Of a stretch of 55,872 bases of DNA, positions 9,168 to 49,518 are shown piece after piece. Position 1 is the stretch's first letter. Each line of letters opens with the position of its first letter. The translations under genes were made by a program, and so were the position numbers. The stretch lies in assembly GCA_028711415.1 (NCBI GenBank), contig JAQTSG010000001.1, positions 1 through 55,872 on the forward strand, read 5' to 3'. The stretch comes from Patescibacteria group bacterium (GTDB lineage Bacteria; Patescibacteriota; Patescibacteriia; Patescibacteriales; JAQTRU01). The notes under the pieces were generated by a model. That model had not been told where the DNA came from and did no database searches. It was given only the letters and a program-made list of their open reading frames with translations.

Positions 9168-9935
9168 TTAGCGTCTAAAAATTTCTACCACCGAATCATG
9201 TAAATTTTTATTAGTGGCAATTATTGACGTGGTATCTTTTGCTACTTCGTTTCCATTGATATCTGTAACTTTGCCACCAGCTTCTTCAACTATGATTTTT
9301 AAAGCGGCAAAATCCCATATTTTTGTTTCCGCCTCAATCATAATATCAATTTTCCCTTGGGCTAATAAGTGATAGCACCAAAAATCGCCAATTCCTCTAT
9401 GTCCGCTAGTTTGTTTAGAAAGCTCTAATAGTGAATTAAGGTGGCCATGCTTATGAAAATATTTTATACCACCGAAACAAAAATATGAATCTGCTAAATT
9501 TTGAATGTTTGAAACATTGATACGCTTTTCCTGAAAAAATGCTCCTCTGCCCTTTTCGGCGAAAATCATTTCATTCATCGCGGGTGCGTTAGAAACACCT
9601 AAAATAATCTCTCCGTCCTCTAATAAAGCAATTTGTGTAGCGAAGAGGGGTATTTTCCGTGTGTAGTTTTTTGTTCCATCAATTGGGTCAATAATCCATT
9701 GATACCCTGAATTAACATTGTCATTTCCCGATTCTTCGCCGAAAAAGGCATGGTCAGGAAAAGAGTTTTTGATTGTTTCTATGATAACTTTCTCAGCTTG
9801 TGTATCCGCAATAGTGATAGGCGATCGGTCAGACTTTTTTTGCCACGTCAAATCATCGGAATAATATTTCATGATAATTTCTTCCGCATTTTTTGCCGCT
9901 TTAATTGCAACTAATAAAAATTTACTTTTATCCAT
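9168..9935 (-). CDS. Inositol monophosphatase family protein (SuhB/HisN-like)
   Basis: FGEESG, WIIDPIDGTKNY and WDFAA motifs. Confidence 0.85.
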   Translation of the reverse strand: MDKSKFLLVAIKAAKNAEEIIMKYYSDDLTWQKKSDRSPITIADTQAEKVIIETIKNSFPDHAFFGEESGNDNVNSGYQWIIDPIDGTKNYTRKIPLFATQIALLEDGEIILGVSNAPAMNEMIFAEKGRGAFFQEKRINVSNIQNLADSYFCFGGIKYFHKHGHLNSLLELSKQTSGHRGIGDFWCYHLLAQGKIDIMIEAETKIWDFAALKIIVEEAGGKVTDINGNEVAKDTTSIIATNKNLHDSVVEIFRR

Positions 9936-9997
9936 CGAAGTGTTTTATTTTTTCTTTAAAATAAGGTAAAATATTTATATAAATATTATAGAATTAA

Positions 9998-11119
9998 ATG
10001 AGGTATATGTCAAAGAAAGTTGCCATAGTAATTAGCCCGAATTGGCGGGATTACGCGGAAAAATATCTAGCGGATTGTCTGGAAAGCTTAAGGAAGCAGA
10101 ATTGGGCTGGCGAGTCCAAGATTTTTTTGATTGATAATGAAACCGGCGAGGAAAGTTTTGGTTTATTAAAAAAAATTGTAGAGACGCAAAATCCCCCTGC
10201 CCCCCTCCTGTCTGCGCAGGCAGGTTATCAAGGGGGGGATGTTGAGATTATCAGGAATAAAAATAATGACGGGTTTGCCAAAGGCAATAACGGGGCGATA
10301 GAACTGGCTTTGGAGCAAGGTTTTGATTATGTCGTTTTATTTAACATGGACGCGATAGTTGAAAAAAACTGCGTGAGTGAATTGGTAAAAACCGCGGAAA
10401 GCGATGAAAGAATCGGAGCGGTGCAGGCGCGGCTGATGCTTTGGCCGGAGAAAGAAAAGATAAATAGTTTGGGGAATGCTACGCATTTTCTCGGTTTCGG
10501 CTATTGTATAGGTTATGGGGGAAAAATTGAAAATTTAAAATTGAAAATTGAAAATTCAATCTGCTATCCTTCGGGGGCGGCGGTGCTTTTTAAAGCTGAA
10601 ATTCTAAAGAAAGTTGGGTTATTTGACGAAGAATTCTGGATGTATAACGAAGACCAGGATTTGGGCTGGCGGATCTGGCTGGCTGGTTATAAATGCGTTT
10701 TGGCGCCCGAGGCCGTGGTTTACCACAAATACGAATTTGCCAAGTCTATCAGACAATATTATTGGATGGACAGAAACCGAATCTTGGCAATTTTGAAAAA
10801 TTATCGGCTGCCCACTTTGGTTTTAATTTTTCCGGCATTTTTGGTTATGGAGTTTGGCTTATTATTATTTTCAATAAAGACCGGTTGGTTCAAGGAGAAA
10901 TTGAAAATTTATAAATATTTTTTAACTCCGAAAAATTGGGCGTATATTTTAAAAGTGAGGCGAAAAACGCAAAGCTTGCGTAAGGTTAAAGACAGGGATA
11001 TAGTAAAGATGTTTACGGGGAAAATATGGTATCAGGAGATAGGGGATTGGAAGTTAAAATTAGTTAACCCAGTGTTTCAAGCTTATTGGTGGGCGATGAG
11101 GAAGATAATCTTTTGGTAA
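9998..11119 (+). CDS. Family 2 glycosyltransferase (rhamnosyltransferase-like) carrying two repeat-derived in-frame segments
   Basis: IDNETGE, NNDGFAKGNN, EDQDLGWR motifs; the start may be 10007 instead. Confidence 0.8.
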   Translation: MRYMSKKVAIVISPNWRDYAEKYLADCLESLRKQNWAGESKIFLIDNETGEESFGLLKKIVETQNPPAPLLSAQAGYQGGDVEIIRNKNNDGFAKGNNGAIELALEQGFDYVVLFNMDAIVEKNCVSELVKTAESDERIGAVQARLMLWPEKEKINSLGNATHFLGFGYCIGYGGKIENLKLKIENSICYPSGAAVLFKAEILKKVGLFDEEFWMYNEDQDLGWRIWLAGYKCVLAPEAVVYHKYEFAKSIRQYYWMDRNRILAILKNYRLPTLVLIFPAFLVMEFGLLLFSIKTGWFKEKLKIYKYFLTPKNWAYILKVRRKTQSLRKVKDRDIVKMFTGKIWYQEIGDWKLKLVNPVFQAYWWAMRKIIFW

Positions 11120-11212: not shown

Positions 11213-12013
11213 ATGGATATAAGCATCATAATTTTAAACTATAAAAGCCGGGGGCTTACTTTAAACTGCGTTAAATCAATTAAGGAGGCGGATTTTAGCA
11301 ATTTAAGATATGAAATAATCGTCGTGGATAATAATTCTGATGATGGTATTGGTGAAATTTTGGCCTGGCAGTATCCGGAGATTAAATTTATTCAGAACAA
11401 GAAAAATTTAGGTATGGGCGCGGGTAATAATGTCGGCCTAAAAAAATCGGAAGGAAAATATATGGTGGTAATGAACCCAGACACGATAGCTTTTCCGGAT
11501 ACTTTCAGGAAGATGCATGAGTTTATGGAAGCTAACTCCGAAGTCGGCCTGGCCGGCCCGAAGCAGTTTTATCCGGACCGGTCTGTTCAAAATTCCTGCT
11601 ATCGGTGGTATAATTTACTTACACCGGTTTACCGACGCACGCCCTTAGGAAAGTTTAAGTTCGCGCGAAGAGATGTGGCCAGATTTTTAATGAAAGATTT
11701 TGATCACAATGAAAAGAGGGAAGTGGATTGGCTTTTGGGCTCATTTTTATTCTGCCGCCGGGCTTGCCTTGACCAGATTGGACTTTTTGACGAAAGGTTT
11801 TTTATGTATTTTGAAGATACTGATCTTTGCCGTCGGGCTTCAAGCCGGGGCTGGAAAGTGGTGTACTATCCGGAAAGCCAGATTATTCATAATCACAAAA
11901 GGGAAAGCGCGGAAACGCTCTGGTATAAATTTCTCTGGAATAAGACAAGCCGGACGCATATCATTTCCTGGCTGAAGTATTTGAAGAAATGGAGGAACGC
12001 GCATAACGCATAA
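11213..12013 (+). CDS. Family 2 glycosyltransferase
   Basis: MDISIIILNYK, VVDNNSDDG, VMNPDT, YFEDTDLC motifs; the stop codon lies inside the first GCATAAC repeats. Confidence 0.85.
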   Translation: MDISIIILNYKSRGLTLNCVKSIKEADFSNLRYEIIVVDNNSDDGIGEILAWQYPEIKFIQNKKNLGMGAGNNVGLKKSEGKYMVVMNPDTIAFPDTFRKMHEFMEANSEVGLAGPKQFYPDRSVQNSCYRWYNLLTPVYRRTPLGKFKFARRDVARFLMKDFDHNEKREVDWLLGSFLFCRRACLDQIGLFDERFFMYFEDTDLCRRASSRGWKVVYYPESQIIHNHKRESAETLWYKFLWNKTSRTHIISWLKYLKKWRNAHNA

Positions 12014-12128
12014 CGCATAACGCATAACGCATAACGCATAACGCATAACGCATAACGCATAACGCATAACGCATAACGCATAACGCATAACGCATAACGC
12101 ATAACGCATAACGCATAACGCATAACGC
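12001..12128 (+). repeat. Tandem heptanucleotide microsatellite (GCATAAC) x18
   Basis: Counted directly: 18 perfect units 12001-12126 plus a partial unit. Confidence 0.95.
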
Positions 12129-14724: not shown

Positions 14725-14910
14725 CTCTAAATCCTAATATCTAAATTCTAAACAAATCCAAAATTCTCACCGCCTCGGCGGGATCCCGCCCCCCTATAAA
14801 TTTTATAGTAATGTGGCGGGAAAATTACCAAATTTTCAAAAAAATTTTTGGATTTTTGTCATTTGAGAATTTGATATTGTTTAGGATTTAGGATTTAGGG
14901 CTTAGGATTT
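14725..14910. repeat. Long imperfect inverted repeat (AAATCCT word) enclosing a GC-rich double hairpin
   Basis: Left arm CTCTAAATCCTAATATCTAAATTCTAAACAAATCCAAAATTCTC; right arm GAGAATTTGATATTGTTTAGGATTTAGGATTTAGGGCTTAGGATTT. Confidence 0.85.
14768..14825 (+). repeat. CACCGC-hairpin element, copy a
   Basis: CACCGCCTCGGCGGGATCCCGCC-N22-GTGGCGGGAAAAT. Confidence 0.85.
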
Positions 14911-16180
14911 ACAAATTGAGGGTTCCAATTCTTTTAATATCGGCACCAAGGGCGCGCAGCCGTCCGTCAATATCTTCATAGCCCCGGTCTATCTGGTAAA
15001 TGTTGTCAATTTCCGTCTGGCCGGAAGCGATCAAAGCGGCGATTAAGATGCCGATGCCGGCCCGCAAATCCGGGCTGGTAAGTTTTTTCCCGAAAAGTCT
15101 GGCCGGGCCGTTAACAACCACGCGGTGCGGGTCGCACATCATAATATCAGCGCCCATCTGCGTAAGGTTATCAACGTAAAGGAGGCGGCGGTCATAAATC
15201 GTTTCATGGATCAGGCAGGAACCGGCCGCTTGCGTCATAAGAACCGTATAAGGCGGCTGCAGGTCGGTCGGGAAACCGGGGTATTCATGAGTTTTAATGC
15301 TATAAGGTTTTATTTTCTTAGCTTCTTTAATTTTCAAAAAGTCTTTGCCAATCTCAAAAGGCACGCCGATTTTATCAAAAATAGAAAGAAGCGCCCGCAC
15401 ATGTTCCGGTTCGCAATCGGTAATGGTAATATTGGATTTAGTGGCCGCGGCCATGATAGCAAAAGAGCCGGTTTCAATGCGGTCTGGGATTATTTTAAAA
15501 TCGCCGGCGCTGATTTTTTCCACTCCTTCTACGGTAATAGTCGGCGTGCCCGCGCCTTTAATTTTTGCTCCTTGTCCATTCAGGTAATCAGCCAGCGCCT
15601 TAATTTCCGGTTCCATAGCGCAGTTTTTTAAGACCGTGGTGCCTTGAGCTAAAACCGCTGTCATCATTAGACTTTCCGTGGCCGTCACGCTTATAATCGG
15701 AAAGAAAGAATTACAACCCTTTAATTTTTTCGCTTTCAGGTGATAATAATTGTCGCTTACTTCAATTTCAGCGCCTAAACATTTAAAGCCGTCCAAAAAC
15801 AAATCAATCGGCCGGCCGCCGGCGCCGATAACGCAGCCGCCGGGATGGGGAAACCTTACCTCGCCGAACCTGGCTAAAATCGGGCCGACAAACATTATTG
15901 AAGCCCTGAATTTATTGGCAAATTCCGGGTTAAGCTCAAATTTGTTAATATTGGCAGTAGAAATTTCCAGACGGTCTCCCTGCCAGTCTGTTTCCGCGCC
16001 CAGGTCAAGAAGAAGATGCAGGGCTTTATCTATATCCTCAATCTTAGGCAGGTTGGAGATGGAGATTTTTTCCCTGGAAAGAATGGCCGCGGGAATAATC
16101 TTCAGAGCGGCATTTTTAGCTCCTTTTACCCTTATGGCTCCGGCTAATTTTTTTCTTCCTTCAATTATGAATTTTGACAT
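14909..16180 (-). CDS. murA: UDP-N-acetylglucosamine 1-carboxyvinyltransferase
   Basis: 423 aa; KNAALKI, active-site loop HPGGCVIGAGGRPID, C-terminal YEDIDGRLRALGA. Confidence 0.95.
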   Translation of the reverse strand: MSKFIIEGRKKLAGAIRVKGAKNAALKIIPAAILSREKISISNLPKIEDIDKALHLLLDLGAETDWQGDRLEISTANINKFELNPEFANKFRASIMFVGPILARFGEVRFPHPGGCVIGAGGRPIDLFLDGFKCLGAEIEVSDNYYHLKAKKLKGCNSFFPIISVTATESLMMTAVLAQGTTVLKNCAMEPEIKALADYLNGQGAKIKGAGTPTITVEGVEKISAGDFKIIPDRIETGSFAIMAAATKSNITITDCEPEHVRALLSIFDKIGVPFEIGKDFLKIKEAKKIKPYSIKTHEYPGFPTDLQPPYTVLMTQAAGSCLIHETIYDRRLLYVDNLTQMGADIMMCDPHRVVVNGPARLFGKKLTSPDLRAGIGILIAALIASGQTEIDNIYQIDRGYEDIDGRLRALGADIKRIGTLNL

Positions 16181-20831: not shown

Positions 20832-22409
20832 ATGGAAAAAGAAAACAAAAAAATTTCTAACGGGGTGAACAATACTAAAGACTTTATTGTTGAGCAAATA
20901 AAAGAGCAGATAAGCGGATTTAAAGCGGAGGCGGAAGAAAAAACTTTCGGCCAGGTAACTGAAGTCGGCGACGGCATTGCCCGGGTTTCCGGCCTGTCCG
21001 ACGCTATGATGTCGGAAATGCTTGAATTTAAAACAGCCAGCGGGCCGGCTTATGGCGTAGTCCTTAACCTGGAAGAAGACAGCGTGGGCGCTATTATTTT
21101 GGGCGACGCTTCTTCAATTAAGGAAGGCGACGAGGTAATCGCTTTAAAGAGGATTTTGGAGGTTCCGGTCGGGGATGAACTGGTCGGCCGGGTAGTTAAT
21201 CCCCTAGGGAAGGCTTTAGACGGAAAAGGGGATTTAAAGACGAAAAAGTCCTATCCGATTGAAAAAATCGCTCCCGGAGTAATCGCCCGCGAATCAGTCA
21301 ACCAGCCGGTCCAGACCGGGATTAAGGCCGTTGATGCCATGATTCCAATCGGTCGGGGCCAAAGAGAACTGATAATCGGCGACCGCCAGATTGGTAAAAC
21401 CGCGATTGCCATTGACGCGATTATCAACCAGAAGGGTCAGCATATGAAATGCATTTACGTGGCGATCGGGCAGAAAGAGTCAAAAGTCGCTTCTATCGTA
21501 GCGCGCCTGGAGAAATTCGGCGCCATGAAATACACGACCGTGGTGATGGCCGGCGCTTCTGATCCGGCTCCGCTTCTTTATATCGCCCCTTACGCCGGTT
21601 GCGCTATGGCTGAATATTTTTTGGACAAAGGCGAAGATGTCTTAATAATTTATGATGATTTGTCAAAACACGCGGTGTCTTACCGCGAGGTTTCTTTGTT
21701 ACTTCGCCGGCCGCCGGGACGCGAAGCTTTTCCGGGAGACGTTTTTTATCTCCATTCCCGTTTGTTGGAAAGGGCTTGCAAATTAAATAAAGATTACGGC
21801 GGCGGCTCCATTACGGCTTTACCTTTAATTGAAACTCAGGCCGGAGACGTTTCCGCTTATATTCCAACCAATGTCATTTCCATAACTGACGGCCAAATTT
21901 ATCTGGAATCAGACCTTTTTTACAAAGGCAACCGCCCGGCTATAAATGCCGGTTTGTCCGTTTCCCGCGTCGGTAACAAAGCGCAAATCAAGGCTATGAA
22001 AAAAGTCGCTGGCCGGATGCGGTTAGAGGCGGCCCAATACAGGGAACTTGAAGCTTTTGCCCAGTTCGGCTCGGATCTAGACAAAGAAACGAAAGAAAAA
22101 CTGGAAAGGGGCCGGCGTATGATTGAAGTCTTAAAGCAGGACCAATACGTGCCGATGCCGGTAGGTCAGCAGGTAGTTATTTTCTTTGCTTTGATTTCCG
22201 GATTTTTAGATAATGTGCCGGTAGAAAAGGTCAAAGATTTTGAAGCTGGTCTCCTGGAGTATGTCCAGGACGTGAATTCTGATTTAGTAAAAGAAATAGA
22301 AAAAACCGGAGAATTAACTGAAAGCGAAGAAAAAAAGCTGGAAAAAACTATTAAAGATTATAAAGATACGCTGGATTATTTAGAGAGTGATAAAGTTAAA
22401 AGTTCATAA
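20832..22409 (+). CDS. atpA: F0F1 ATP synthase subunit alpha
   Basis: GDRQIGKT Walker A, ~15-aa N-terminal extension containing a repeat half-site. Confidence 0.95.
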
Positions 22410-22464
22410 AGTTATAAAGTTAAATACTTTAAGACTTTTTACTTTTAACTTTATAAACTAAGAG

Positions 22465-25525: not shown

Positions 25526-25610
25526 CTAGTTAAAAGTTTGTAAAGTTTATAAAGTTGAAAGTCCTCCTATTCGGACTTTATAACTTTTAACTTTATGACT
25601 TTATAACTAG
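25526..25610. repeat. AT-rich heptamer-word inverted repeat (AAGTTAT/ATAACTT word)
   Basis: CTAGTTAAAAGTTTGTAAAGTTTATAAAGTTGAAAGTCC ... GGACTTTATAACTTTTAACTTTATGACTTTATAACTAG. Confidence 0.85.
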
Positions 25611-26091: not shown

Positions 26092-26181
26092 GTTCCCCTC
26101 CTTAATTGAGGAGGGGACAGGGGTGGTGGGGCTGGTGATAAAATCAGACCACCCCCAACCCCTCCTTGTCTAAGGAGGGGA
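26092..26181. repeat. GC-rich composite element, copy A (module order permuted)
   Basis: CCCCTCCTTAATTGAGGAGGGG, CAGGGGTGGTGG ... ACCACCCCC, CCCCTCCTTGTCTAAGGAGGGG. Confidence 0.85.
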
Positions 26182-26397: not shown

Positions 26398-26447
26398 CCT
26401 GTCTGCGCAGGCAGGTTATGCGATATGCGTTATGCGATATGCGTTAT
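26398..26447 (+). repeat. CCTGTCTGCGCAGGCAGG palindrome followed by (GTTATGCGATATGC)x2.3, abutting the groES ATG
   Basis: Direct read; the first 22 nt are identical to 10207-10228. Confidence 0.9.
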
Positions 26448-26732: not shown

Positions 26733-26770
26733 AATTAATATAAATAAATTTTTCGCATCCCGCGTTTCTC

Positions 26771-28448
<1,678 letters not shown>

Positions 28449-32165: not shown

Positions 32166-32273
32166 AGTTTAAAGTTTGTAAAGTTATAAAGTTTATAAGG
32201 TTGGAGGTTTATAAAGTTATTAGAAAATTGTTTCCCCCGACTTTATAACTTTATAAACTTTTTACTTTTAACT
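32166..32273. repeat. AT-rich heptamer-word inverted repeat (AAGTTAT word)
   Basis: AGTTTAAAGTTTGTAAAGTTATAAAGTTTATAAGG... / GACTTTATAACTTTATAAACTTTTTACTTTTAACT. Confidence 0.85.
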
Positions 32274-34216: not shown

Positions 34217-34322
34217 AACCACCCCTAGCCCCTCCTTATCTAAGGAGGGGGAAATATAACAAAACATTTTTTCTAGTTCCCCTCCTCGGTTGAGGAGGGG
34301 GCAGGGGTGGTGGGTGGGTGGT
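34217..34322 (+). repeat. GC-rich composite element, copy B
   Basis: ACCACCCCT, CCCCTCCTTATCTAAGGAGGGG, spacer, CCCCTCCTCGGTTGAGGAGGGG, CAGGGGTGGTGG. Confidence 0.9.
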
Positions 34323-35910: not shown

Positions 35911-36315
35911 ATGAATTTTTCTACCAGGACAACTTACGGGCTTCGGGCCATGATTAGATTGGCGGGGCGCAAAGGCCCGGAATCTCTGTCTCTTCCCAAT
36001 ATCGCCAAAGCGGAAAATATTTCTTTGGGCTATTTGGAAAGATTATTTTCTGATTTGAAAAAAGGCGGTTTAGTTCAATCGGGCAAGGGCGTCAAGGGCG
36101 GCTATAAACTAGCAAAGCCAGCTGAAAGAATAGAGGTTTATGAAATAGTTAAATCTTTGGAGGGCAAGATGTCTCCATTCCATTGTCTGGACGAAGGTGG
36201 TAAAATTTATTGTAAGGTCAGCTGCCGATGCGGAGCGACCAAAGTTTTAATTAAAGTTCAAGAGGCCGTTAAAAAGACTTTGAAAGGAATAAAATTGAGC
36301 GACTTAGTCGCATAA
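35911..36315 (+). CDS. Rrf2 family transcriptional regulator (IscR-like)
   Basis: MNFSTRTTYGLRAMIRLA wHTH start; C-terminal Cys cluster HCLDEGGKIYCKVSCRCG; ATG 35911 preferred over the repeat-encoded extension. Confidence 0.85.
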   Translation: MNFSTRTTYGLRAMIRLAGRKGPESLSLPNIAKAENISLGYLERLFSDLKKGGLVQSGKGVKGGYKLAKPAERIEVYEIVKSLEGKMSPFHCLDEGGKIYCKVSCRCGATKVLIKVQEAVKKTLKGIKLSDLVA

Positions 36316-36334
36316 CGCATAACGAGAAGGTCTT

Positions 36335-37168: not shown

Positions 37169-37215
37169 TTTCGCATAACGCGTAACGCACAATGCATAAC
37201 ATGGTGCATAAAAAT

Positions 37216-37584: not shown

Positions 37585-37652
37585 TAATTGGAAATTTGTA
37601 ATTTGGAAATTGTTTAAAAATTTAAAATTTAAAATTTAAAATTAATAAGAAT

Positions 37653-38635: not shown

Positions 38636-39928
38636 ATGAAAATATATTTTGACCACAGCGCTACCACGCCAATAGACAAAAAAGTGCTAAAAGAAATGAC
38701 GCCGTATTTTGGCGAGAAGTTCGGCAATCCTTCGTCAATCCATAGTTTTGGCCAGGCGGCCGTAGCCGGGGTTGATAAAGCCAGGGAACAAGTAGCTAAG
38801 TTTTTAAATTGCGAGCCGGGAGAAGTTATCTTCACTTCCGGAGCGACTGAGTCTGATAATCTGGCTTTGCGGGGCGTTATTGGCGCCATAAAAAGACAGG
38901 GCATAGCCAAGCCGCATGTCATCACGACTTTAATTGAACATGATGCTGTGCTTGCCCCCTGCTTAGAGATGGAAAGAGAAGGAGTGGAAATTACTTTTTT
39001 ACCGGTTAAACCCAATGGGGTAGTGGATTTAGAAAAATTAAAGAAAGCTATAAAAGAAAATACGGTCTTGGTTTCCGTAATGTACGTTAACAGCGAAGTC
39101 GGCAGTATCCAACCGATCAGGGAAATCGGAAAAATTATAGAAAAGATAAATAAAGATAAGTTGAATGAATGGAAAAAGGCAAGAACCAAAGACCGGGGAG
39201 AGAAACCCCGACCGATTTATTTTCACACGGACGCGACCCAGGCCCTGAATTTCCTGCCTGCCGATACGAAATATCTGCATGTTGATCTATTAAGTTTGTC
39301 CGGGCATAAAATTTACGGGCCAAAAGGCATAGGGGCGCTCTATGTTAAAAATGGCGTTCCGCTTAAGGCAATCCAGCTAGGCGGGCATCATGAGAAAAAT
39401 CTCCGTAGTGGCACGTTAAATGTTCCCGGAATAGTTGGGTTAGGCGCGGCAGTAAGTCTGCTAGACAAAAAAACAAGAAAACCCCACTACGCCGAGGCTT
39501 CGAGGGGCAAGCAAGAAAACAAAAAAACATGGGAAGGTACGAATAAGAAAATTGCTCGGTTAAGGGACATGTTGGTTGATGGGGTTATGAAGAATATCCC
39601 AGACGTTATCCTGAATACTGACCGGGAGAATTCTACTCCGGCGCACGCCCATTTTTCCTTTTTAGGCGTGGAAGGGGAGTCAATTTTAATCGCCCTTGAT
39701 TTAGAAGGAATTGCGGTTTCTACGGGTTCGGCCTGCGCTTCCGGTTCGCTTAAAGCTTCGCATGTTTTAATCGCCATGGGCATAAAAAAGGAAATTGCTC
39801 ATAATTCCATCCGTTTCAGCTTAGGCAATAATAATACGGAAGCGGAAATAAAAAGAGTGATAAAGGTTTTGCCGCCGATTATAAAGAAGTTAAGAGGCAT
39901 GAATCCGGACTACGGTCAAGAAAACTAA
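38636..39928 (+). CDS. Cysteine desulfurase (NifS/IscS class) with two low-complexity insertions
   Basis: SGHKIYGPKG PLP-lysine motif; STGSACASG active-site Cys loop. Confidence 0.9.
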   Translation: MKIYFDHSATTPIDKKVLKEMTPYFGEKFGNPSSIHSFGQAAVAGVDKAREQVAKFLNCEPGEVIFTSGATESDNLALRGVIGAIKRQGIAKPHVITTLIEHDAVLAPCLEMEREGVEITFLPVKPNGVVDLEKLKKAIKENTVLVSVMYVNSEVGSIQPIREIGKIIEKINKDKLNEWKKARTKDRGEKPRPIYFHTDATQALNFLPADTKYLHVDLLSLSGHKIYGPKGIGALYVKNGVPLKAIQLGGHHEKNLRSGTLNVPGIVGLGAAVSLLDKKTRKPHYAEASRGKQENKKTWEGTNKKIARLRDMLVDGVMKNIPDVILNTDRENSTPAHAHFSFLGVEGESILIALDLEGIAVSTGSACASGSLKASHVLIAMGIKKEIAHNSIRFSLGNNNTEAEIKRVIKVLPPIIKKLRGMNPDYGQEN

Positions 39929-39952
39929 AAAGCAAAAAAGCAAGAAAACAAA

Positions 39953-39986
39953 GGGGTTCGACCCCCAAGCTTGGGGGTCGAACCCC
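39953..39986. repeat. Palindrome GGGGTTCGACCCCC-AAGCTT-GGGGGTCGAACCCC (probable terminator)
   Basis: Direct read; a second copy lies inside miaA at 49117-49149. Confidence 0.9.
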
Positions 39987-40026
39987 TATTATATATTTTG
40001 CTAAAATAAGCTATATTTTTTAACGC

Positions 40027-44574: not shown

Positions 44575-46404
44575 ATGGAAATTGCACAAAAAATCAAGAT
44601 TTGGCTCAAAGGTCAATGGCCCCTGTTGGCGGTTATTTTTGTGTCTGTCTGTTTTTTCTTTGGCGCTTCCAGCTATAACTATTTAACCCAGGCAGGCGGG
44701 TTTACTAAATGGGCTTCGCCGGACGAGACGGCTAACTATACTTTTTCTAAACTTTACGGCCAGACCGGAGAAATGGCCATATTTGAAGAGTATAATTTAG
44801 TAGGTGAAGATATAATCCATCCCAGAAGTTTTGGGAGTATTGACGGCAATCTTAAGCCCGTTAGTTTTTTAGGGATTATTCTAATTTATGGTTGGTTGGT
44901 AGGCCTAACGACTTATAAGATATTGCCGTTTTTAACTCCGGCCTTAGCCGCTTTAGGAATTATATTTTTCTATCTTTTTATAAAAAAAATTTTTGGGCCG
45001 CGCAACGGCCTGATTTCGACGTTTCTTTTAGCATCTTTTCCGCCTTATCTTTACTACTCGGCCAGGAGTATGTTTCATAATGTTTTATTTGTCGCTCTTT
45101 TGATTTTTGGTTTGTATTTTGGCTTGCTTATGGCCGGGAAAAAATACGAGTGGAAGAATTTGGATTTAGCCAATTGGCTTTTTGCCGCTTTATCCGGATT
45201 TTTTTTCGGCTTGGCCATTATAACGAGGACTTCGGAATTGCTCTGGCTAGCTCCGGCGCTTCTTATTCTTTGGCTTTTTAATTTAAGAAAAATCGGTTTT
45301 ACGAAATTAGTAATTTTTTTATCATCTTTGTTTCTGGCAATTTTACCCGTCCTGTATTGGAACCAAATTTTATACGGCTCGCCTTTATCCGGCGGCTATC
45401 CGGAGATGAACCAGTCGGTTGAAACTTTAGTTGAGTCAAGCGGCGATTTAATAAAATCAACCGCGGCCGGTAATTTAACCTATAGCCGCGAGATGCTTAA
45501 TAAAATAAAAGGGACGATTTTTTATTTCGGCTTTGCCCCGAAGCAGTCAGTGAGGATGTTTTATTATTATTTCACTGATATGTTCCCCTGGCTTTTTTGG
45601 CCGGCGGTTTTCGGCGGCCTTTTGTTTCTTCAGAGGGTCCTTAAATGGAGAAAAAAACATCTGGTCTATTTAATAGTTTACGGATTTATTTCTACTATTT
45701 TGCTTTTTTACTATGGCAGCTGGCTGTTTCATGATAATCCTGACCCGAGAAGTTTTACGATCGGCAATTCTTATACTCGTTATTGGCTGCCGATTTATCT
45801 TGGCGCCCTGCCTTTTACCAGTTTATTTATAATAAAGCTCACCAGGGCGATGTTTCCTCGTTTAGCGAAAATCGCGCCCGAGGAAGCGGAAGGAAAAGTT
45901 TTAGTAAAGAAGGCGATTTTTCCCATGGCGGGCAACTTTATAAAAAAGGAGTTTAAGCGCCTAAAAAGAACTTTCTTTATAAGCTGCAGCCGGGCCGTGC
46001 TTCTTATTTTAATTTATTTTATTTCCATTTCTTTTGTCTTGTTCGGTTCGGAAGAAGGCCTGATTTATTCTATAGAGAACCAGAAAAAATCAAGGTATGA
46101 ACTGGAGAAGATTTTAGAGTTAACCGAGTCTGACGCTGTTATTATTACCCGCTATCACGATAAAGTTTTTTTCCCGGAAAGGAAAGTGATTGTCGGCTTA
46201 TTTGAAGATGATAAGATGAACGTCCGCTACGCAAAGTTAATAAATTATCTGCCGGTTTATTATTATAATTTTACTTTGCCGGAGAAGGATTTTAATTATT
46301 TGAATGGCGAGAAACTGAAAGCGGCGGGCTTACAAATAGCGCCGGTTGAAAAGATTACTGGAGATTTTAGTTTGTACAAGCTGGTAAAGAATCAGGAATT
46401 ATGA
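44575..46404 (+). CDS. GT-C fold glycosyltransferase (family 39 / ArnT-PMT-like)
   Basis: 609 aa polytopic; SPDETANY acidic motif in the first extracytoplasmic loop. Confidence 0.6.
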   Translation: MEIAQKIKIWLKGQWPLLAVIFVSVCFFFGASSYNYLTQAGGFTKWASPDETANYTFSKLYGQTGEMAIFEEYNLVGEDIIHPRSFGSIDGNLKPVSFLGIILIYGWLVGLTTYKILPFLTPALAALGIIFFYLFIKKIFGPRNGLISTFLLASFPPYLYYSARSMFHNVLFVALLIFGLYFGLLMAGKKYEWKNLDLANWLFAALSGFFFGLAIITRTSELLWLAPALLILWLFNLRKIGFTKLVIFLSSLFLAILPVLYWNQILYGSPLSGGYPEMNQSVETLVESSGDLIKSTAAGNLTYSREMLNKIKGTIFYFGFAPKQSVRMFYYYFTDMFPWLFWPAVFGGLLFLQRVLKWRKKHLVYLIVYGFISTILLFYYGSWLFHDNPDPRSFTIGNSYTRYWLPIYLGALPFTSLFIIKLTRAMFPRLAKIAPEEAEGKVLVKKAIFPMAGNFIKKEFKRLKRTFFISCSRAVLLILIYFISISFVLFGSEEGLIYSIENQKKSRYELEKILELTESDAVIITRYHDKVFFPERKVIVGLFEDDKMNVRYAKLINYLPVYYYNFTLPEKDFNYLNGEKLKAAGLQIAPVEKITGDFSLYKLVKNQEL

Positions 46405-46428
46405 ATTAAGATTTAAGATTTAAGATTT

Positions 46429-47820
46429 ATGAAATATAAGAAGACATATTACATAATCACCATCGGCTGCCAGATGAACAAGTCAGATAGTGAGAGAGTG
46501 GCGGCTTACTTAGAAAAGCATGGATACAGTTTAGCCAAGAGCGAAACTAAGGCGGATTTAATCGTGTTAACGACCTGCGGGGTCAGGCAGGCGGCCGAAG
46601 ACCGAGTTTATGGTTTGGTAGGAAAAATCAAGAAAAAAAATCCGAAGGGGAAATTAATTTTGACCGGCTGTTTAAGCGAACGGGAAGATGTTCGCCAGAG
46701 GTTAGGGGATAAAGTGGATCTGTGGCTACCAATATCACAAATTTTAAATTTTAAATTTCAAATTTTAAAGAAAGCCCGAAACCCGAAACCCGAAACCCGA
46801 AACTGCGATTATCTAGGGATAAAACCTAAATATAGTTCTAAATTTTCCGCTTTTGTGCCGATTGGCAACGGCTGTAATAATTTTTGCGCTTATTGCGTCG
46901 TGCCTTATGCTAGGGGGCGGGAAGTTTACCGGTCGGCCGAGGAGATTTTAGCCGAGGTGAGAGATCTAGTGGCGAGAGGTTATAAAGAAATTGTGTTGAT
47001 TGCGCAGAACGTTAACAGTTATAAAGTCAAAAGTCAAAAGTCAAAAGTCAAAAGAATTAATTTTTCTAGATTATTAAGGATGATAAGTGGTATTTCTGGG
47101 GATTTCTGGATAAGATTCGCCACCAGCCATCCGAAGGATATGAGCGATGAATTGATAAAGACCATTGCCGAATGCGATAAGGTTTGTAAACATATTCATT
47201 TGCCCGTGCAGGCCGGAGATGACGAAGTGCTTAAAAAAATGAATAGAGGATATACGAGGGAAGATTATATAAAATTGGTAAAGAAGATAAGAAATAGTTT
47301 GGAAATCCTAAATCCTAAATCCGAAATCCTAAACAAATTCAAAATTCAAAATTCAAAACCGGAGAGATTTAATCCTGTTTCGATAACAACTGATGTAATT
47401 GTCGGGTTTCCGGGCGAGACGAAAAAACAGTTTGCTAATACTGTAAAATTATTTAAAGAAGTAAAGTTTGATATGGCTTATATTGCCCGCTATAGCGGGA
47501 GGCCGGGAACAGCCGCTTATAAACTAAAAGATGATGTTTCGCTTGCTGAAAAAAAGAGAAGAGAAGAGGAATTAATAAAAATTTTACGTCGGACCGCGCT
47601 GGAAAATAATAAAAAGTATTTGGGGAAAACGGTGGAGGTGTTGGTTGTTGGGAAAAGCAGGAAGGGGGAGTGGTATGGATATACGGAGACGAATAAGAAT
47701 ACGGGAATTAAGATTTATGATTTAAGAATTAAGAATATTATTGGGAAGTTTGTAAAAGTTAAAATAATTAAAGCGAGAGATTTTGGGTTGGAAGGAGTGT
47801 ATACGAAAGAAACGAAATAA
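46429..47820 (+). CDS. miaB: tRNA methylthiotransferase MiaB (radical SAM) with three repeat-derived insertions
   Basis: GCQMNKSDSE, TTCGV, TGC N-domain cysteines; GCNNFCAYCVVPYARGRE radical-SAM motif; C-terminal TRAM. Confidence 0.9.
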   Translation: MKYKKTYYIITIGCQMNKSDSERVAAYLEKHGYSLAKSETKADLIVLTTCGVRQAAEDRVYGLVGKIKKKNPKGKLILTGCLSEREDVRQRLGDKVDLWLPISQILNFKFQILKKARNPKPETRNCDYLGIKPKYSSKFSAFVPIGNGCNNFCAYCVVPYARGREVYRSAEEILAEVRDLVARGYKEIVLIAQNVNSYKVKSQKSKVKRINFSRLLRMISGISGDFWIRFATSHPKDMSDELIKTIAECDKVCKHIHLPVQAGDDEVLKKMNRGYTREDYIKLVKKIRNSLEILNPKSEILNKFKIQNSKPERFNPVSITTDVIVGFPGETKKQFANTVKLFKEVKFDMAYIARYSGRPGTAAYKLKDDVSLAEKKRREEELIKILRRTALENNKKYLGKTVEVLVVGKSRKGEWYGYTETNKNTGIKIYDLRIKNIIGKFVKVKIIKARDFGLEGVYTKETK

Positions 47821-48006
47821 AACGAAAAAGACGAACTCAATTCTGTGGATAGCCGTTTAAATCCCCGGCCAGCTCCGCTAGCGGGGCAGGCTGTTTAAAT
47901 CTATGCTTTTATTTTTTGCCTTGATTTATATAGATTTAAACTGATTTGTGTCAAAAAGAAAACCCCGGAGGTGAAGTCCGAGGTTTGGAAAAATGATTGG
48001 CTGAAC

Positions 48007-48543: not shown

Positions 48544-49518
48544 ATGTCAATATCCAATCACCGCCTTAATTATTATGGCGGGACAGGCAAAATTATTGTA
48601 ATTTTAGGACCGACATCTTCTGGCAAAACCAAGCTGGGGGTTGATTTAGCGTCTAAATTTAACGGGGAAGTTATTAGCGCGGATTCAAGGCAGGTTTATA
48701 AGGGAATGGATGTGGGAACCGGCAAAGACCTGGATGAATATAAAATAAAAGATAAAAAATCAAAAATAAAAAATATTGAATATCATCTGATTGACGTGGT
48801 TAATCCTAACACCAGATTTAGTTTGGCTAAATATCAGAAACTGGCGTTTGGGGCGATAGAGGATATTTTAAAACGAGAAAAGACGCCGATTATAGTGGGC
48901 GGAACCGGGCTTTATTTGCAGGCCGTGGTGGATAATTATAATTTAAGCGGGGTTAGGCCGGATAAGAAGCTACGGGAAGAATTAGAGAAAAAAACGGTTG
49001 AAGATTTATTTTTGGCGCTTAAAAAAATAAATTCTAAATTTGCTGAGCGATTGAACGATAGTGAGAAAAAAAACAAGAGAAGGTTAATTCGTTATCTTGA
49101 GATAATGCAGAGCGAAGGGGTTCGACCCCCTATAGGGGGTCGAACCCCCAAAGCTGGCTATGACTTTCTTTTACTTGGTTTAACCTGGCCTAAGGAAGTT
49201 CTGAAAGAGAGAATTTATAAAAGATTGATAGAAAGATTAGAAAAAGAAAATATGGTTGAGGAAGTGAAAAAATTACACGAAGAAGGCGTGAGCTGGAAGC
49301 GGCTGGAAAGTTTTGGCTTGGAATATAAATATATTTCTTTATATTTGCAGGAGAAATTGGTTTATGAAGAAATGGTGGAAAAGTTATTTATCGCCACTCG
49401 GCAATTCGCCAAGAAGCAGATGACTTGGTTTAAGCGCTGGGAAAAGCAGGGGAGAAAGATTTATTGGGTTAAGGATAAAGAAGAAGCGGAAAAACTGGTA
49501 GAAAAATTTTTAAAATAA
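48544..49518 (+). CDS. miaA: tRNA dimethylallyltransferase
   Basis: GPTSSGKT P-loop, ISADSRQVYKGMDVGTGK motif. Confidence 0.9.
   Translation: MSISNHRLNYYGGTGKIIVILGPTSSGKTKLGVDLASKFNGEVISADSRQVYKGMDVGTGKDLDEYKIKDKKSKIKNIEYHLIDVVNPNTRFSLAKYQKLAFGAIEDILKREKTPIIVGGTGLYLQAVVDNYNLSGVRPDKKLREELEKKTVEDLFLALKKINSKFAERLNDSEKKNKRRLIRYLEIMQSEGVRPPIGGRTPKAGYDFLLLGLTWPKEVLKERIYKRLIERLEKENMVEEVKKLHEEGVSWKRLESFGLEYKYISLYLQEKLVYEEMVEKLFIATRQFAKKQMTWFKRWEKQGRKIYWVKDKEEAEKLVEKFLK
49117..49149. repeat. Palindrome GGGGTTCGACCCCC-TATA-GGGGGTCGAACCCCC inside the miaA reading frame
   Basis: Direct read; encodes GVRPPIGGRTP. Confidence 0.9.

What the first reader, a model, noticed from the sequence alone, without database searches (positions are those of the whole stretch)
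46740..47358. Three heptamer-repeat modules are embedded in frame in the radical-SAM enzyme MiaB
MiaB contains three repeat segments. The first is (AATTTTA)n-AAAGAAAG-(CCCGAAA)x4 at 46740-46802, encoding ILNFKFQILKKARNPKPETRN. The second is (GTCAAAA)x4 at 47026-47053, encoding KVKSQKSKVKR. The third is (AAATCCT)x4-AAACAA-(ATTCAAA)x3 at 47303-47358, encoding EILNPKSEILNKFKIQNSKPE. The third module is visibly the same kind of element as the intergenic arm at 14725-14768. All three fall in linker or loop positions: between the N-domain and the CxxxCxxC motif, after QNVNSY, and before the DVIVGFPGET strand. The frame is preserved. This resembles the in-frame colonisation of genes by Rickettsia palindromic elements, but with heptamer tandem arrays.
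Basis: partly seen in the sequence, partly recalled or inferred. Interest (0 to 1): 0.65.

Follow-up and report, generated by a model that had tools for sequence, protein, structure and literature searches.

The report
In-frame 7-bp microsatellites inside MiaB
A tRNA-modifying enzyme gene (miaB) of an uncultured Patescibacteria bacterium carries six short tandem arrays of 7-bp units that are translated as loops and linkers, and in close relatives the same arrays slip and break the gene, so non-triplet microsatellites both build and endanger protein sequence in this lineage.

Summary
A sixth, weaker array lies in the TRAM domain (47705-47736). A seventh spans the upstream stop codon and the miaB start (46387-46433). 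Dinucleotide shuffles give none.

Orthologue alignments show four indel hot spots:
- Module 3 is a clean +23 aa insertion.
- Module 2 is +7 aa (21 nt, three units) relative to short Patescibacteria forms.
- Module 1 is not a net insertion; it overwrites the ancestral interdomain linker.

Relatives carry period-7 arrays at the same four sites, but with different units. All 33 arrays found in 79 metagenomic MiaBs lie at these sites.

The arrays behave as microsatellites:
- Orthologous arrays differ by the same base in every copy.
- Units that would create a stop codon carry exactly one substitution, in that codon.
- Two natural alleles are frameshifted by clean deletions inside an array (-7 nt and -32 nt).

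They are not Rickettsia-palindromic-element-like mobile palindromes. However, 30-nt GC-rich mini-palindromes do insert in frame in relatives.

Closest known kinds are cyanobacterial STRR heptamer repeats and long heptanucleotide SSRs. I found no description of this in Patescibacteria. Verdict: real, a new variant of a known kind.

The parts
46429..47820 (+). miaB coding sequence (463 aa): tRNA (i6A37-C2)-methylthiotransferase, intact
   Evidence: ORF. Pfam UPF0004 7-88, Radical_SAM 143-290, TRAM 395-456. Model matches PDB 7MJZ with TM 0.79-0.84. Closest homologues are Patescibacteria/Falkowbacteria MiaB.
46387..46433 (+). Array 0: (GAATTAA/GATTTAA) x6.7. It fills the whole spacer. The upstream PMT_2-like gene's stop (TGA 46402-46404) and the miaB ATG (46429) both lie in unit variants. 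Same unit family as array 4.
   Evidence: TRF, sequence, 96% over 23 nt to 47705-47727. Absent from the orthologous spacers of L081 and L084.
46739..46769 (+). Module 1a: (AAATTTT) x4.4, encodes QILNFKFQIL (modelled as a helix, pLDDT about 69). One T>C change turns a would-be in-frame TAA into CAA.
   Evidence: The same unit forms an intergenic array at 37617-37643.
46770..46803 (+). Module 1b: (GAAACCC)/(CCCGAAA) x4.7, encodes ARNPKPETRN (pLDDT below 50). The orthologous array in L081 is (TCCGAAA)x4, differing by the same base in every copy.
47023..47054 (+). Module 2: (AAAGTCA) x4.6, perfect, encodes KVKSQKSKVKR (modelled as a beta-hairpin, pLDDT about 68). It is +21 nt relative to short forms (KDGKIN). 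The orthologous array in L095 uses AAAGTCG.
47303..47333 (+). Module 3a: (AAATCCT) x4.4, encodes EILNPKSEIL. One T>G change turns a would-be TAA into GAA.
   Evidence: pLDDT is below 50 for residues 295-312.
47335..47358 (+). Module 3b: (AAATTCA) x3.4, perfect, encodes KFKIQNSK. It is joined to 3a by the recurrent AAAYAAAT junction. The orthologous stretch in L095 and L093 is degenerate, so homogenisation here is recent.
47705..47736 (+). Module 4: (GAATTAA)-type x4.6, 84% matches, encodes GIKIYDLRIKNI in a TRAM-domain strand and loop (pLDDT 84-92). Relatives carry (GAATTAC)x4.6 (L081) or (GAATTAT)-type arrays (L084, L101) at this position.
14725..14768 (+). Intergenic arm of the same unit family and architecture as module 3: (AAATCCT)-like units, then AAACAA, then (ATCCAAA)-like units.
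14877..14915 (-). Inverted partner arm, (TTTAGGA)n. This is the best within-window match to module 3.
48737..48775 (+). Weak heptamer array (AATAAAA) x5.6 in the neighbouring miaA gene (IKDKKSKIKNI). Relatives carry clearer arrays at this position.

Best explanation
The modules are heptanucleotide microsatellites, comparable to STRR repeats or long SSRs. They pervade the genomes of one Patescibacteria (Falkowbacteria-related) clade.

The proposed mechanism has five steps:
1. Arrays are created and continually remodelled at the DNA level by slipped-strand mispairing or unequal exchange. Copies of one unit spread and replace their neighbours.
2. In coding DNA, arrays survive only where the protein tolerates almost any flexible, hydrophilic peptide. 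In MiaB there are four such segments: the interdomain linker, the hairpin after NVNSY, the loop before the SITTD strand, and a TRAM loop.
3. Because 7 and 3 share no factor, three units (21 nt) encode a 7-residue period and every unit is read in all three frames.
4. Selection then filters for an open frame, for the A-rich strand as the sense strand, and for stop-free units or a single patching substitution.
5. A slip that is not a multiple of 3 nt destroys or splits the gene, and such alleles occur in nature.

Shown here: the arrays, their insertion or replacement status, their translation, concerted evolution, and slippage alleles. Inferred: slippage as the generating force, the cause of the 7-bp preference, and tolerance due to MiaB being dispensable.
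For: Lineage-wide 7-bp excess:
- Period-7 arrays occur at 2.65 per 10 kb in the window's clade against 0.02 per 10 kb in 77 non-Patescibacteria miaB loci. More distant Patescibacteria loci have none.

Same sites, different units:
- Eight relatives carry arrays at the same sites with different units.
- All 33 arrays found in 79 metagenomic MiaB genes map to the four sites. None occur in the 39 genes that are at most 57% identical to the window's protein.

Concerted evolution:
- Window (CCCGAAA)x4 against L081 (TCCGAAA)x4.
- Window (AAAGTCA) against L095 (AAAGTCG).
- Window (ATTCAAA)x3, perfect, where L095 and L093 have diverged units at constant length.

Translation and selection:
- Of 15 arrays with stop-free units, 12 are perfect.
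- All 6 arrays whose ideal unit would give an in-frame stop carry a substitution in exactly that codon. That accounts for 6 of 11 mismatches against 0.7 expected.
- In 187 kb, the sense strand is A-rich in 32 of 41 CDS arrays and T-rich in 8.
- The sense-strand unit is stop-free in 31 of 41, against 0.555 expected from base composition and 14 of 41 for the antisense strand.
- Copy number in CDS never exceeds 6.0, against up to 18.4 outside.

Direct slippage:
- L091 differs from L083 by loss of exactly one AAATTGG unit (-7 nt). This splits miaB into 142-aa and 362-aa ORFs.
- L092 differs from L101 by a clean 32-nt deletion of one higher-order repeat, with 0 mismatches in 340 nt.

Structure:
- pLDDT is below 50 at residues 115-125 and 295-312, while the catalytic core is confident.

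Literature:
- Heptanucleotide repeats are the most abundant long SSR class in many bacteria, with polymerase slippage proposed as the cause (Mrazek 2007, as summarised in PMC4692102 and PMC4679880).
Against: - The same few units recur at different sites, genes and species. GAATTAC appears at site 1 in L095, site 2 in L084 and site 4 in L081. AAATTCA appears at sites 1 and 3 and in miaA. CGCATAA appears at five window loci. This is far more often than base composition predicts. Pure local slippage does not explain it; copying between loci, or strong convergent bias, is needed.
- A recurrent AAAYAAAT junction between paired arrays is unexplained.
- The stop-patch statistic is partly forced, because the ORF is open by definition.
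- Long and short site-3 forms co-vary with the upstream helix (YTREDYIKLV against YTVAHYKNLI). The patchy distribution on the tree may therefore reflect recombination of old alleles rather than repeated gain and loss.
- No read data exist for the window itself.
- Why miaB holds 5 of the window's 7 in-CDS arrays, in about 3% of its coding DNA, is not explained.
Confidence: 0.7

Rival explanations
1. Mobile or templated-copy element. The arrays, or the two-array composites joined by AAAYAAAT, are dispersed copies of a small non-autonomous element that inserts into genes, as Rickettsia palindromic elements or cyanobacterial small dispersed repeats do. Local slippage acts only afterwards.
For: - Identical units occur at several loci within one genome: AAATCCT at 14725, 14880 and 47303; AAATTTT at 37617 and 46739; GAATTAA-type at 46396 and 47705; CGCATAA at five loci.
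- The same units occur at different MiaB sites in different species.
- Site 1 has the same length but completely different arrays in the window and in L095, as if it had been overwritten.
- The same composite architecture appears in genes and in intergenic DNA.
- This lineage demonstrably has in-frame mobile mini-elements: a 30-nt GC-rich palindrome in miaB and in gatB of L089 that is absent from L088.
Against: - No terminal inverted repeats, target duplications or conserved element body flank the arrays.
- The short and long site-3 forms show no clean empty-site relationship, because their flanks differ.
- Orthologous arrays differ by concerted single-base unit changes, and alleles differ by whole units. 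That is microsatellite behaviour.
- No transposase-like partner is evident.
Confidence: 0.15
2. Contingency locus. The non-triplet arrays are maintained because unit slippage reversibly switches MiaB (and MiaA) off and on, or splits the enzyme at a domain boundary. This would toggle ms2i6A37 tRNA modification and hence translational behaviour within a population.
For: - The unit length is not a multiple of 3.
- Natural frameshift alleles lie exactly in arrays in 2 of 10 clusters of 90%-identical proteins examined, both on long contigs from sibling samples.
- The -7 allele splits the gene at the interdomain linker into two ORFs, each with a start codon.
- miaB holds 5 of the window's 7 in-CDS arrays, and miaA is also a recurrent host.
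Against: - Arrays are short, 3.4-4.7 copies, whereas classical contingency tracts are longer.
- There are four or five arrays per gene rather than one near the 5' end.
- The window's allele and most database alleles are in frame.
- MiaB is a housekeeping enzyme, not a surface or host-interaction protein.
- Frameshift alleles are equally expected from a neutral mutational hazard in a dispensable gene.
- Reversibility has not been shown.
Confidence: 0.1
3. Adaptive peptide. The encoded Lys/Asn/Gln/Ser/Pro-rich 7-residue periods are selected for what they do in the protein, for example extra RNA-binding or disordered loops on a tRNA enzyme, as proposed for amino-acid tandem repeats of Borg elements.
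For: - Inserts persist at the same sites across many species.
- Module 2 is strongly basic (KVKSQKSKVKR).
- Array-coded segments are modelled as a helix, a hairpin and a strand at sites 1a, 2 and 4.
- Long site-3 forms keep a conserved non-array anchor, (W/F/L)xxPVSI.
- The Borg precedent is described in PMC9879509.
Against: - The peptide sequence at each site is not conserved among relatives, only its low complexity.
- Many orthologues within the clade lack the inserts.
- Composition follows the A-rich DNA unit rather than any motif.
- The same arrays occur in intergenic DNA.
Confidence: 0.05

Closest known systems
STRR (short tandemly repeated repetitive) heptanucleotide sequences of heterocystous cyanobacteria, and heptanucleotide long SSRs in general (Mrazek et al. 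2007)
   Same: - Tandem arrays of 7-bp units are strongly over-represented relative to other periods.
- A few unit families are dispersed over many loci.
- Arrays are often found as inverted pairs in intergenic DNA.
- Length and sequence vary between close relatives (PMC4692102, PMC4679880).
- From my own knowledge: STRRs also occur inside a functional gene (cyanobacterial RNase P RNA, Vioque 1997), and small dispersed repeats nest inside heptamer arrays in Nostoc (Elhai et al. 2008; the citation was seen, but the paper could not be read).
   Different: - The phylum and the units differ: A/T-rich AAATnnn-type units in Patescibacteria.
- Here most arrays by count lie inside conserved protein-coding genes (41 of 57 in 187 kb). 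They are translated in frame at recurrent structural sites.
- Published surveys describe heptamers as mainly intergenic and report that SSRs with units in multiples of three dominate in coding DNA.
Rickettsia palindromic elements (RPE) inserted in frame in protein genes
   Same: The outcome is the same: extra, in-frame, tolerated peptide segments in surface or linker positions of conserved housekeeping proteins, recurring across a lineage.
   Different: RPEs are 100-150-bp palindromic mobile elements with a conserved sequence (my own knowledge). The MiaB modules are 24-34-nt tandem arrays without palindromy or a conserved body, and they change by unit slippage. The 30-nt GC-rich palindrome in miaB and gatB of L089 is the more RPE-like object in this lineage.
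Amino-acid tandem repeats of Borg elements (Schoelmerich et al. 2023, PMC9879509)
   Same: Fast-evolving, near-perfect nucleotide tandem repeats inside ORFs create low-complexity or disordered protein segments. Intergenic and genic arrays coexist and show an A bias.
   Different: All Borg in-ORF repeats have unit lengths divisible by three. Here the unit is 7 nt, so the frame cycles, a 21-nt super-period arises, and a single-unit slip is a frameshift.
SSR contingency loci (phase variation) of Haemophilus, Neisseria and Helicobacter
   Same: A non-triplet repeat lies inside a coding sequence, and natural alleles differ by whole units that shift the frame.
   Different: The arrays are short, there are several per gene, the host is a housekeeping tRNA-modification gene, and there is no evidence of reversible high-rate switching.

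Membership tests
Heptanucleotide long SSR / STRR-type repeats | Head-to-tail arrays of a 7-bp unit, longer and more frequent than chance | tested here: met
   TRF rows. Seven perfect arrays of at least 3 copies against 0.0 in shuffles. Twelve period-7 arrays against none for periods 8-12.
Heptanucleotide long SSR / STRR-type repeats | Genome- and lineage-wide excess of period 7, with the same units dispersed over many loci | tested here: met
   2.65 against 0.02 arrays per 10 kb. Units are shared between loci. Only 55.9 kb plus about 130 kb of relatives were sampled, not whole genomes.
Heptanucleotide long SSR / STRR-type repeats | Copy-number change by whole units between close relatives (slippage) | tested here: met
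   L083 against L091: one AAATTGG unit lost. L088 against L089: arrays present or absent. Concerted unit differences. Not tested for the window's own population.
Heptanucleotide long SSR / STRR-type repeats | Cyanobacterial host and the canonical STRR1-3 units (strict STRR definition) | tested here: not met
   Homologues are Patescibacteria/Falkowbacteria. The units are AAATTTT, CCCGAAA, AAAGTCA, AAATCCT and AAATTCA.
Rickettsia palindromic element-like in-frame mobile element | Palindromic (hairpin-forming) element body of about 100-150 bp | tested here: not met
   The modules are 24-65 nt of direct repeats. The inverted-repeat scan finds no arms within them. Only AAATTTT is trivially self-complementary.
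Rickettsia palindromic element-like in-frame mobile element | Copies at different loci share a conserved full-length sequence | tested here: not met
   Within-window matches are limited to shared units or about 40 nt. Orthologous sites carry unrelated units.
Rickettsia palindromic element-like in-frame mobile element | In-frame insertion into conserved proteins at permissive surface positions | tested here: met
   Site 3 is +23 aa and site 2 is +7 aa, and both are loops. Site 1 is a replacement, not a net insertion.
SSR contingency (phase-variation) locus | Non-triplet repeat within the coding sequence, with population alleles that shift the frame | tested here: met
   -7 nt and -32 nt alleles lie in arrays of two relatives. 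This was not observed for the window's own gene.
SSR contingency (phase-variation) locus | High-rate, reversible on/off switching with phenotypic consequence | not testable with these tools
   This needs read-level population data or culture assays.
MiaB (tRNA ms2i6A37 methylthiotransferase) | UPF0004/MTTase N domain with three Cys, radical-SAM CxxxCxxC motif and a C-terminal TRAM domain | tested here: met
   Pfam. C50, C81, C149, C153 and C156 are invariant, and GC14Q is conserved. The model matches 7MJZ. miaA lies next door.

The most novel reading that the evidence does not exclude
The heptamer arrays are not passive microsatellites but members of an actively copied, dispersed family, spread by some unknown templated or conversion mechanism that writes a small repertoire of AAATnnn-type units into permissive DNA. 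Their concentration in miaB and miaA would make the ms2i6A37 tRNA-modification pathway a slippage-controlled switch, or a split/fused enzyme, in these ultra-small bacteria.
Probability: 0.12. Interest if true: 0.8.

Novelty: new variant of a known kind. Interest (0 to 1): 0.6.

Why it matters
It shows a route by which non-triplet microsatellites write new protein sequence into conserved enzymes. A 7-bp unit read in all three frames yields a 7-residue period that can serve as a linker, hairpin, strand or disordered loop.

The same arrays expose the gene to frameshift and fission, and such alleles were seen in natural populations.

There are three practical or broader consequences:
- It explains the odd low-complexity peptides (KSQIPNP, ITNYELR, IFNFQFS and similar) that litter Patescibacteria protein alignments, and the length heterogeneity of their orthologues. 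This matters for annotation, alignment trimming and phylogenomics of the Candidate Phyla Radiation.
- It extends the unexplained preference for heptanucleotide repeats, known from cyanobacteria, Xanthomonas and Beggiatoaceae, to a new phylum. Here comparative data are rich enough to test slippage against copying models.
- If the switching reading were true, it would link genome instability to control of tRNA modification.

Tried and rejected
- Rfam scan of the whole window: no family at gathering score, so the arrays are not part of a known RNA.
I used these as an outgroup instead.
- Parsimony mapping of expanded against short states on a neighbour-joining tree of 116 MiaBs gave nearly as many changes as shuffled states (26/31, 25/30, 29/37, 16/17). 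I do not read this as repeated insertion. Long and short site-3 forms co-vary with the preceding helix, and close relatives are mosaic, so recombination or a weak single-gene tree may produce the pattern.
- Insert lengths among 116 proteins show no clean modulo-7-aa series.
- Peptide period 7 is only modestly enriched, 0.13-0.15 against about 0.08, because most arrays are short or decayed.
- The mini-palindromes of L088 and L089 were searched for in the window and gave only chance-level matches.
- The split gene in cluster 7 (P0169/P0170) breaks outside any array. The short members of cluster 5 are unrelated peptides.
- Elhai et al. 2008 could not be read.
- Four literature searches found no paper on heptamer repeats in Patescibacteria or CPR. 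Absence from this library is not proof of absence.
- Splicing or bypassing of the segments was considered and rejected, because stop-creating units are patched exactly where translation would require it.
Full report
**1. What is there**

The ORF 46429-47820 (+) encodes a 463-aa protein. Pfam finds UPF0004, Radical_SAM and TRAM domains. Its best homologues are MiaB proteins of uncultured Patescibacteria, including Candidatus Falkowbacteria, at no more than 75% identity. An AlphaFold model (mean pLDDT 81.5) superposes on Bacteroides uniformis MiaB structures 7MJZ/7MJV with TM 0.79-0.84. The cluster cysteines are invariant in an alignment of 29 relatives. The gene lies between a PMT_2-like membrane glycosyltransferase gene and, after a small reverse-strand ORF, miaA. 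This synteny is shared with relatives. The gene is therefore an intact miaB.

**2. The observation**

- (AAATTTT) x4.4 at 46739-46769
- (GAAACCC) x4.7 at 46770-46803
- (AAAGTCA) x4.6 at 47023-47054
- (AAATCCT) x4.4 at 47303-47333
- (AAATTCA) x3.4 at 47335-47358

The quoted peptides are correct. Two more arrays belong to the picture:
- A degenerate (GAATTAA) x4.6 array at 47705-47736 in the TRAM domain.
- An array of the same unit family at 46387-46433. It fills the whole spacer upstream and contains both the preceding gene's TGA and the miaB ATG.

Perfect arrays of at least 3 copies with period 7 number 7 in the window against 0.0 in dinucleotide shuffles. Periods 6 and 8-12 have none. A tolerant census gives 12 period-7 arrays and none for periods 8-12. 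Of the 7 arrays that lie fully inside ORFs in the window, 5 are in miaB, which is about 3% of the coding DNA.

**3. Insertions or ancestral sequence?**

Four segments of MiaB are length-hypervariable among 116 Patescibacteria homologues. The table compares them with 76 non-Patescibacteria MiaBs used as an outgroup.

| Site | Outgroup | Window | Reading |
|---|---|---|---|
| 3 | 9 aa in 73 of 76 | 32 aa | clean insertion of about 23 aa; also seen against 7MJZ |
| 2 | median 9 aa (6 aa in short Patescibacteria forms, KDGKIN) | 13 aa | +7 aa = 21 nt = three units |
| 4 | 13 aa | 17 aa | small expansion |
| 1 | linker, median 33 aa | 28 aa | not a net insertion; the arrays replaced the ancestral linker |

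The model gives pLDDT below 50 for residues 115-125 and 295-312. These correspond to the second half of module 1 and to module 3. Module 1a is modelled as a helix (pLDDT about 69). Module 2 is modelled as a beta-hairpin (about 68). Module 4 is part of a confident TRAM strand and loop (84-92). Array-coded peptide therefore serves as loop, linker and even regular secondary structure.

**4. Relatives**

I fetched the DNA of ten relatives and 80 metagenomic loci. At the same four sites relatives carry period-7 arrays built from other units. Examples:
- Site 1: AAATTGG (L083), AAAATTC (L085), AATTTTC (L087), GAATTAC (L095).
- Site 2: GAATTAC (L084), AAATTAC (L088).
- Site 3: AAAATCC (L082), AAAACCC (L086).
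- Site 4: GAATTAC (L081).

In 79 metagenomic MiaB genes, all 33 arrays detected map to these four sites (15, 7, 6 and 5) and none map elsewhere. Seventeen of the 40 genes that are at least 58% identical to the window's protein have arrays. None of the 39 genes at 57% or below do.

Period-7 arrays occur at 2.65 per 10 kb in this clade's loci, against 0.02 per 10 kb in 77 non-Patescibacteria loci. Three more distant Patescibacteria loci have none. This is a clade-wide genomic trait, not a peculiarity of one gene copy or an assembly artefact.

**5. How the arrays behave**

(a) Concerted evolution. The window's (CCCGAAA)x4 corresponds to (TCCGAAA)x4 in L081, with the same base changed in every copy. 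(AAAGTCA) corresponds to (AAAGTCG) in L095. The window's perfect (ATTCAAA)x3 corresponds to diverged units in L095 and L093 at nearly the same total length.

(b) Translation under selection. I examined 21 arrays in nine genes. Fifteen have units that are stop-free in all frames, and 12 of those are perfect. All six whose ideal unit would give an in-frame stop carry a substitution in exactly that codon. In the window these are T>C at module 1a (TAA to CAA) and T>G at module 3a (TAA to GAA). That accounts for 6 of 11 mismatches against 0.7 expected. This result is partly forced because the ORF is open. It still shows that the segments are read by the ribosome and are otherwise kept homogeneous.

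Across 187 kb:
- 41 arrays lie inside ORFs and 16 do not lie fully inside one. Density is 2.5 against 6.3 per 10 kb.
- The sense strand is the A-rich one in 32 cases and the T-rich one in 8.
- The sense-strand unit is stop-free in 31 of 41, against 0.555 expected and 14 of 41 for the antisense strand.
- Copy number inside ORFs never exceeds 6.0, while intergenic arrays reach 18.4.

(c) Slippage alleles. Among members of ten clusters of 90%-identical proteins, two contain split genes on long contigs.
- L091 is identical to L083 except that the site-1 array has three instead of four AAATTGG units. This 7-nt loss splits miaB into a 142-aa N-domain ORF and an overlapping 362-aa radical-SAM+TRAM ORF.
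- L092 differs from L101 by a clean 32-nt deletion of one copy of a higher-order repeat (four heptamers plus a 4-nt partial unit) in the site-2 array. There are no mismatches in 340 nt of flanks.

(d) Birth and death. L088 and L089 are 90% identical and mosaic. Between them, heptamer arrays are present in one and absent in the other, both in spacers and in the Tmk-Dcd interdomain linker.

**6. Explanation**

The best reading is that these are heptanucleotide microsatellites, generated and homogenised by slipped-strand mispairing or unequal exchange. Selection filters them for open frame, sense-strand A-richness and structural permissiveness.

Three units make 21 nt and a 7-residue period, and each unit is read in all three frames. 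The peptide therefore depends only on the unit, which explains the recurrent KSQIPNP, ITNYELR and IFNFQFS motifs in relatives. Single-unit slips are frameshifts, which makes the arrays a mutational hazard. MiaB is dispensable in model bacteria (established knowledge), which may be why it tolerates so many arrays. That last step is inference.

**7. What this does not explain**

- The same few units recur at different sites, genes and species, and at several loci of the window, much more often than base composition predicts.
- Paired arrays are often joined by an AAAYAAAT junction, in genes and in the intergenic arm at 14725-14768 alike.
- Site 1 has the same length but unrelated arrays in the window and in L095.

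These points leave room for copying between loci, by ectopic conversion or an unknown templated process. I rate that at about 0.15.

A contingency-switch role is compatible with the frameshift alleles and with miaA also being a recurrent host. However, the arrays are short and multiple, and reversibility is untested; I rate it at about 0.1.

Selection for the peptides themselves is unlikely because their sequences are not conserved.

**8. Comparison with known systems**

Heptanucleotide repeats are the most abundant long SSR class in many bacteria. They have been described as mainly intergenic in Xanthomonas, Nostoc, Calothrix (STRR), Microcystis and Beggiatoaceae. Polymerase slippage is the proposed cause, and SSRs with units in multiples of three are reported as the ones found in coding DNA (PMC4692102, PMC4679880). 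Borg tandem repeats create disordered protein regions, but always with unit lengths divisible by three (PMC9879509).

The MiaB modules fit the heptamer-SSR kind. They differ in host phylum, in units, and in being translated in frame at recurrent structural sites of conserved enzymes.

They fail the defining features of Rickettsia palindromic elements, namely a palindromic body and a conserved sequence. They resemble RPEs only in outcome. A truly RPE-like object does exist in this lineage: a 30-nt GC-rich palindrome inserted in frame inside the site-2 heptamer array of L089 miaB, with a sister copy in gatB, both absent from L088. From my own recollection, this echoes the small dispersed repeats nested in heptamer arrays of Nostoc (Elhai et al. 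2008). That paper was not readable here.

Four searches of the paper library found nothing on heptamer repeats in Patescibacteria.

**9. Verdict**

The feature is a new variant of a known kind. Interest is moderate to high for genome evolution and for annotation of Candidate Phyla Radiation proteins. The mechanism of 7-bp preference and of unit sharing remains open.

Noticed in passing
window 12000-12128, 36309-36324, 37172-37200; reverse orientation at 26417-26447 and 26770-26799: A second heptamer family, (CGCATAA)n/(TTATGCG)n, sits at gene junctions. The 18-copy array supplies the stop of a GT2 glycosyltransferase gene (11213..12013). The reverse arrays overlap the start codons of groES (26418) and groEL (26781). 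The unit gives TAA in every frame one way and ATG in every frame the other way.
   Followed up: partly
window 47864-47892 (flanking repeats at 47855-47863 and 47893-47901): A 29-nt GC-rich palindromic insert, CCCGGCCAGCTCCGCTAGCGGGGCAGGCT, is flanked by a 9-nt direct repeat, GTTTAAATC, just downstream of miaB. The otherwise conserved spacer of relative L084 lacks it. It looks like a mini mobile element with a target duplication.
   Followed up: partly
window 26094-26181 and 34218-34311: Two intergenic GC-rich nested palindromes of about 88 nt belong to one family and lie in opposite orientations (CCCCTCCTTA..TAAGGAGGGG plus ACCACCCC arms). Peptides such as SPLTPLLIRRGELKGRG in the MiaB loops of relatives look like translated copies of such elements.
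   Followed up: no
window 22386-22452, 25533-25608, 32166-32273; also L084 and L085 upstream of miaB: Intergenic hairpins have arms that are themselves tandem 8-mer arrays, (AGTTATAA)n facing (ACTTTATA)n. They may be terminators built from repeats, and the family is shared with relatives.
   Followed up: no
L089 4704-4733 and 9187-9216, compared with L088: A 30-nt GC-rich palindromic element (CCCGCTTCGCC...GGCGAGGCGAG ends) is inserted in frame inside the (AAATTAC) array of miaB and, in reverse orientation, in gatB. Both copies are absent from the 90%-identical L088. A 12-nt palindrome, GCCAGCTGGCGG, is an indel in miaA of L088 (position 4866).
   Followed up: partly
L091 (against L083) and L092 (against L101): Natural frameshift alleles of miaB are caused by clean deletions inside heptamer arrays (-7 nt at site 1, -32 nt at site 2). 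The first splits the enzyme at the domain boundary into two ORFs, each with a start codon.
   Followed up: yes
window 48737-48775; L081 11517-11548, L083 1731-1782 and 2115-2146, L087 11622-11679, L088 4448-4521, L089 6651-6724: The neighbouring miaA gene also hosts heptamer arrays in most relatives, often two adjacent arrays. Both enzymes of the ms2i6A37 pathway are therefore preferred hosts.
   Followed up: partly
L088 against L089 (whole loci); P0002 against P0015; cluster of P0004: Close relatives are mosaics of 100%-identical and strongly diverged blocks. Long and short forms of the site-3 loop co-vary with the preceding helix (YTREDYIKLV against YTVAHYKNLI). This suggests frequent homologous recombination between lineages.
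   Followed up: partly
L084, about 9870-10000: A partial duplication of the miaB 5' end (…TYYIITIGC…) is interrupted by a GC-rich insert, directly upstream of the intact copy.
   Followed up: no
window 10523-10556: An in-frame (AAAATTG) x4.9 array encodes KIENLKLKIENS in a family-2 glycosyltransferase gene (9998..11119). It is the only clear in-CDS heptamer array in the window outside miaB and miaA.
   Followed up: no
window 39952-39987: A perfect 36-nt palindrome, AGGGGTTCGACCCCCAAG/CTTGGGGGTCGAACCCCT, lies after the ORF 38636..39928.
   Followed up: no
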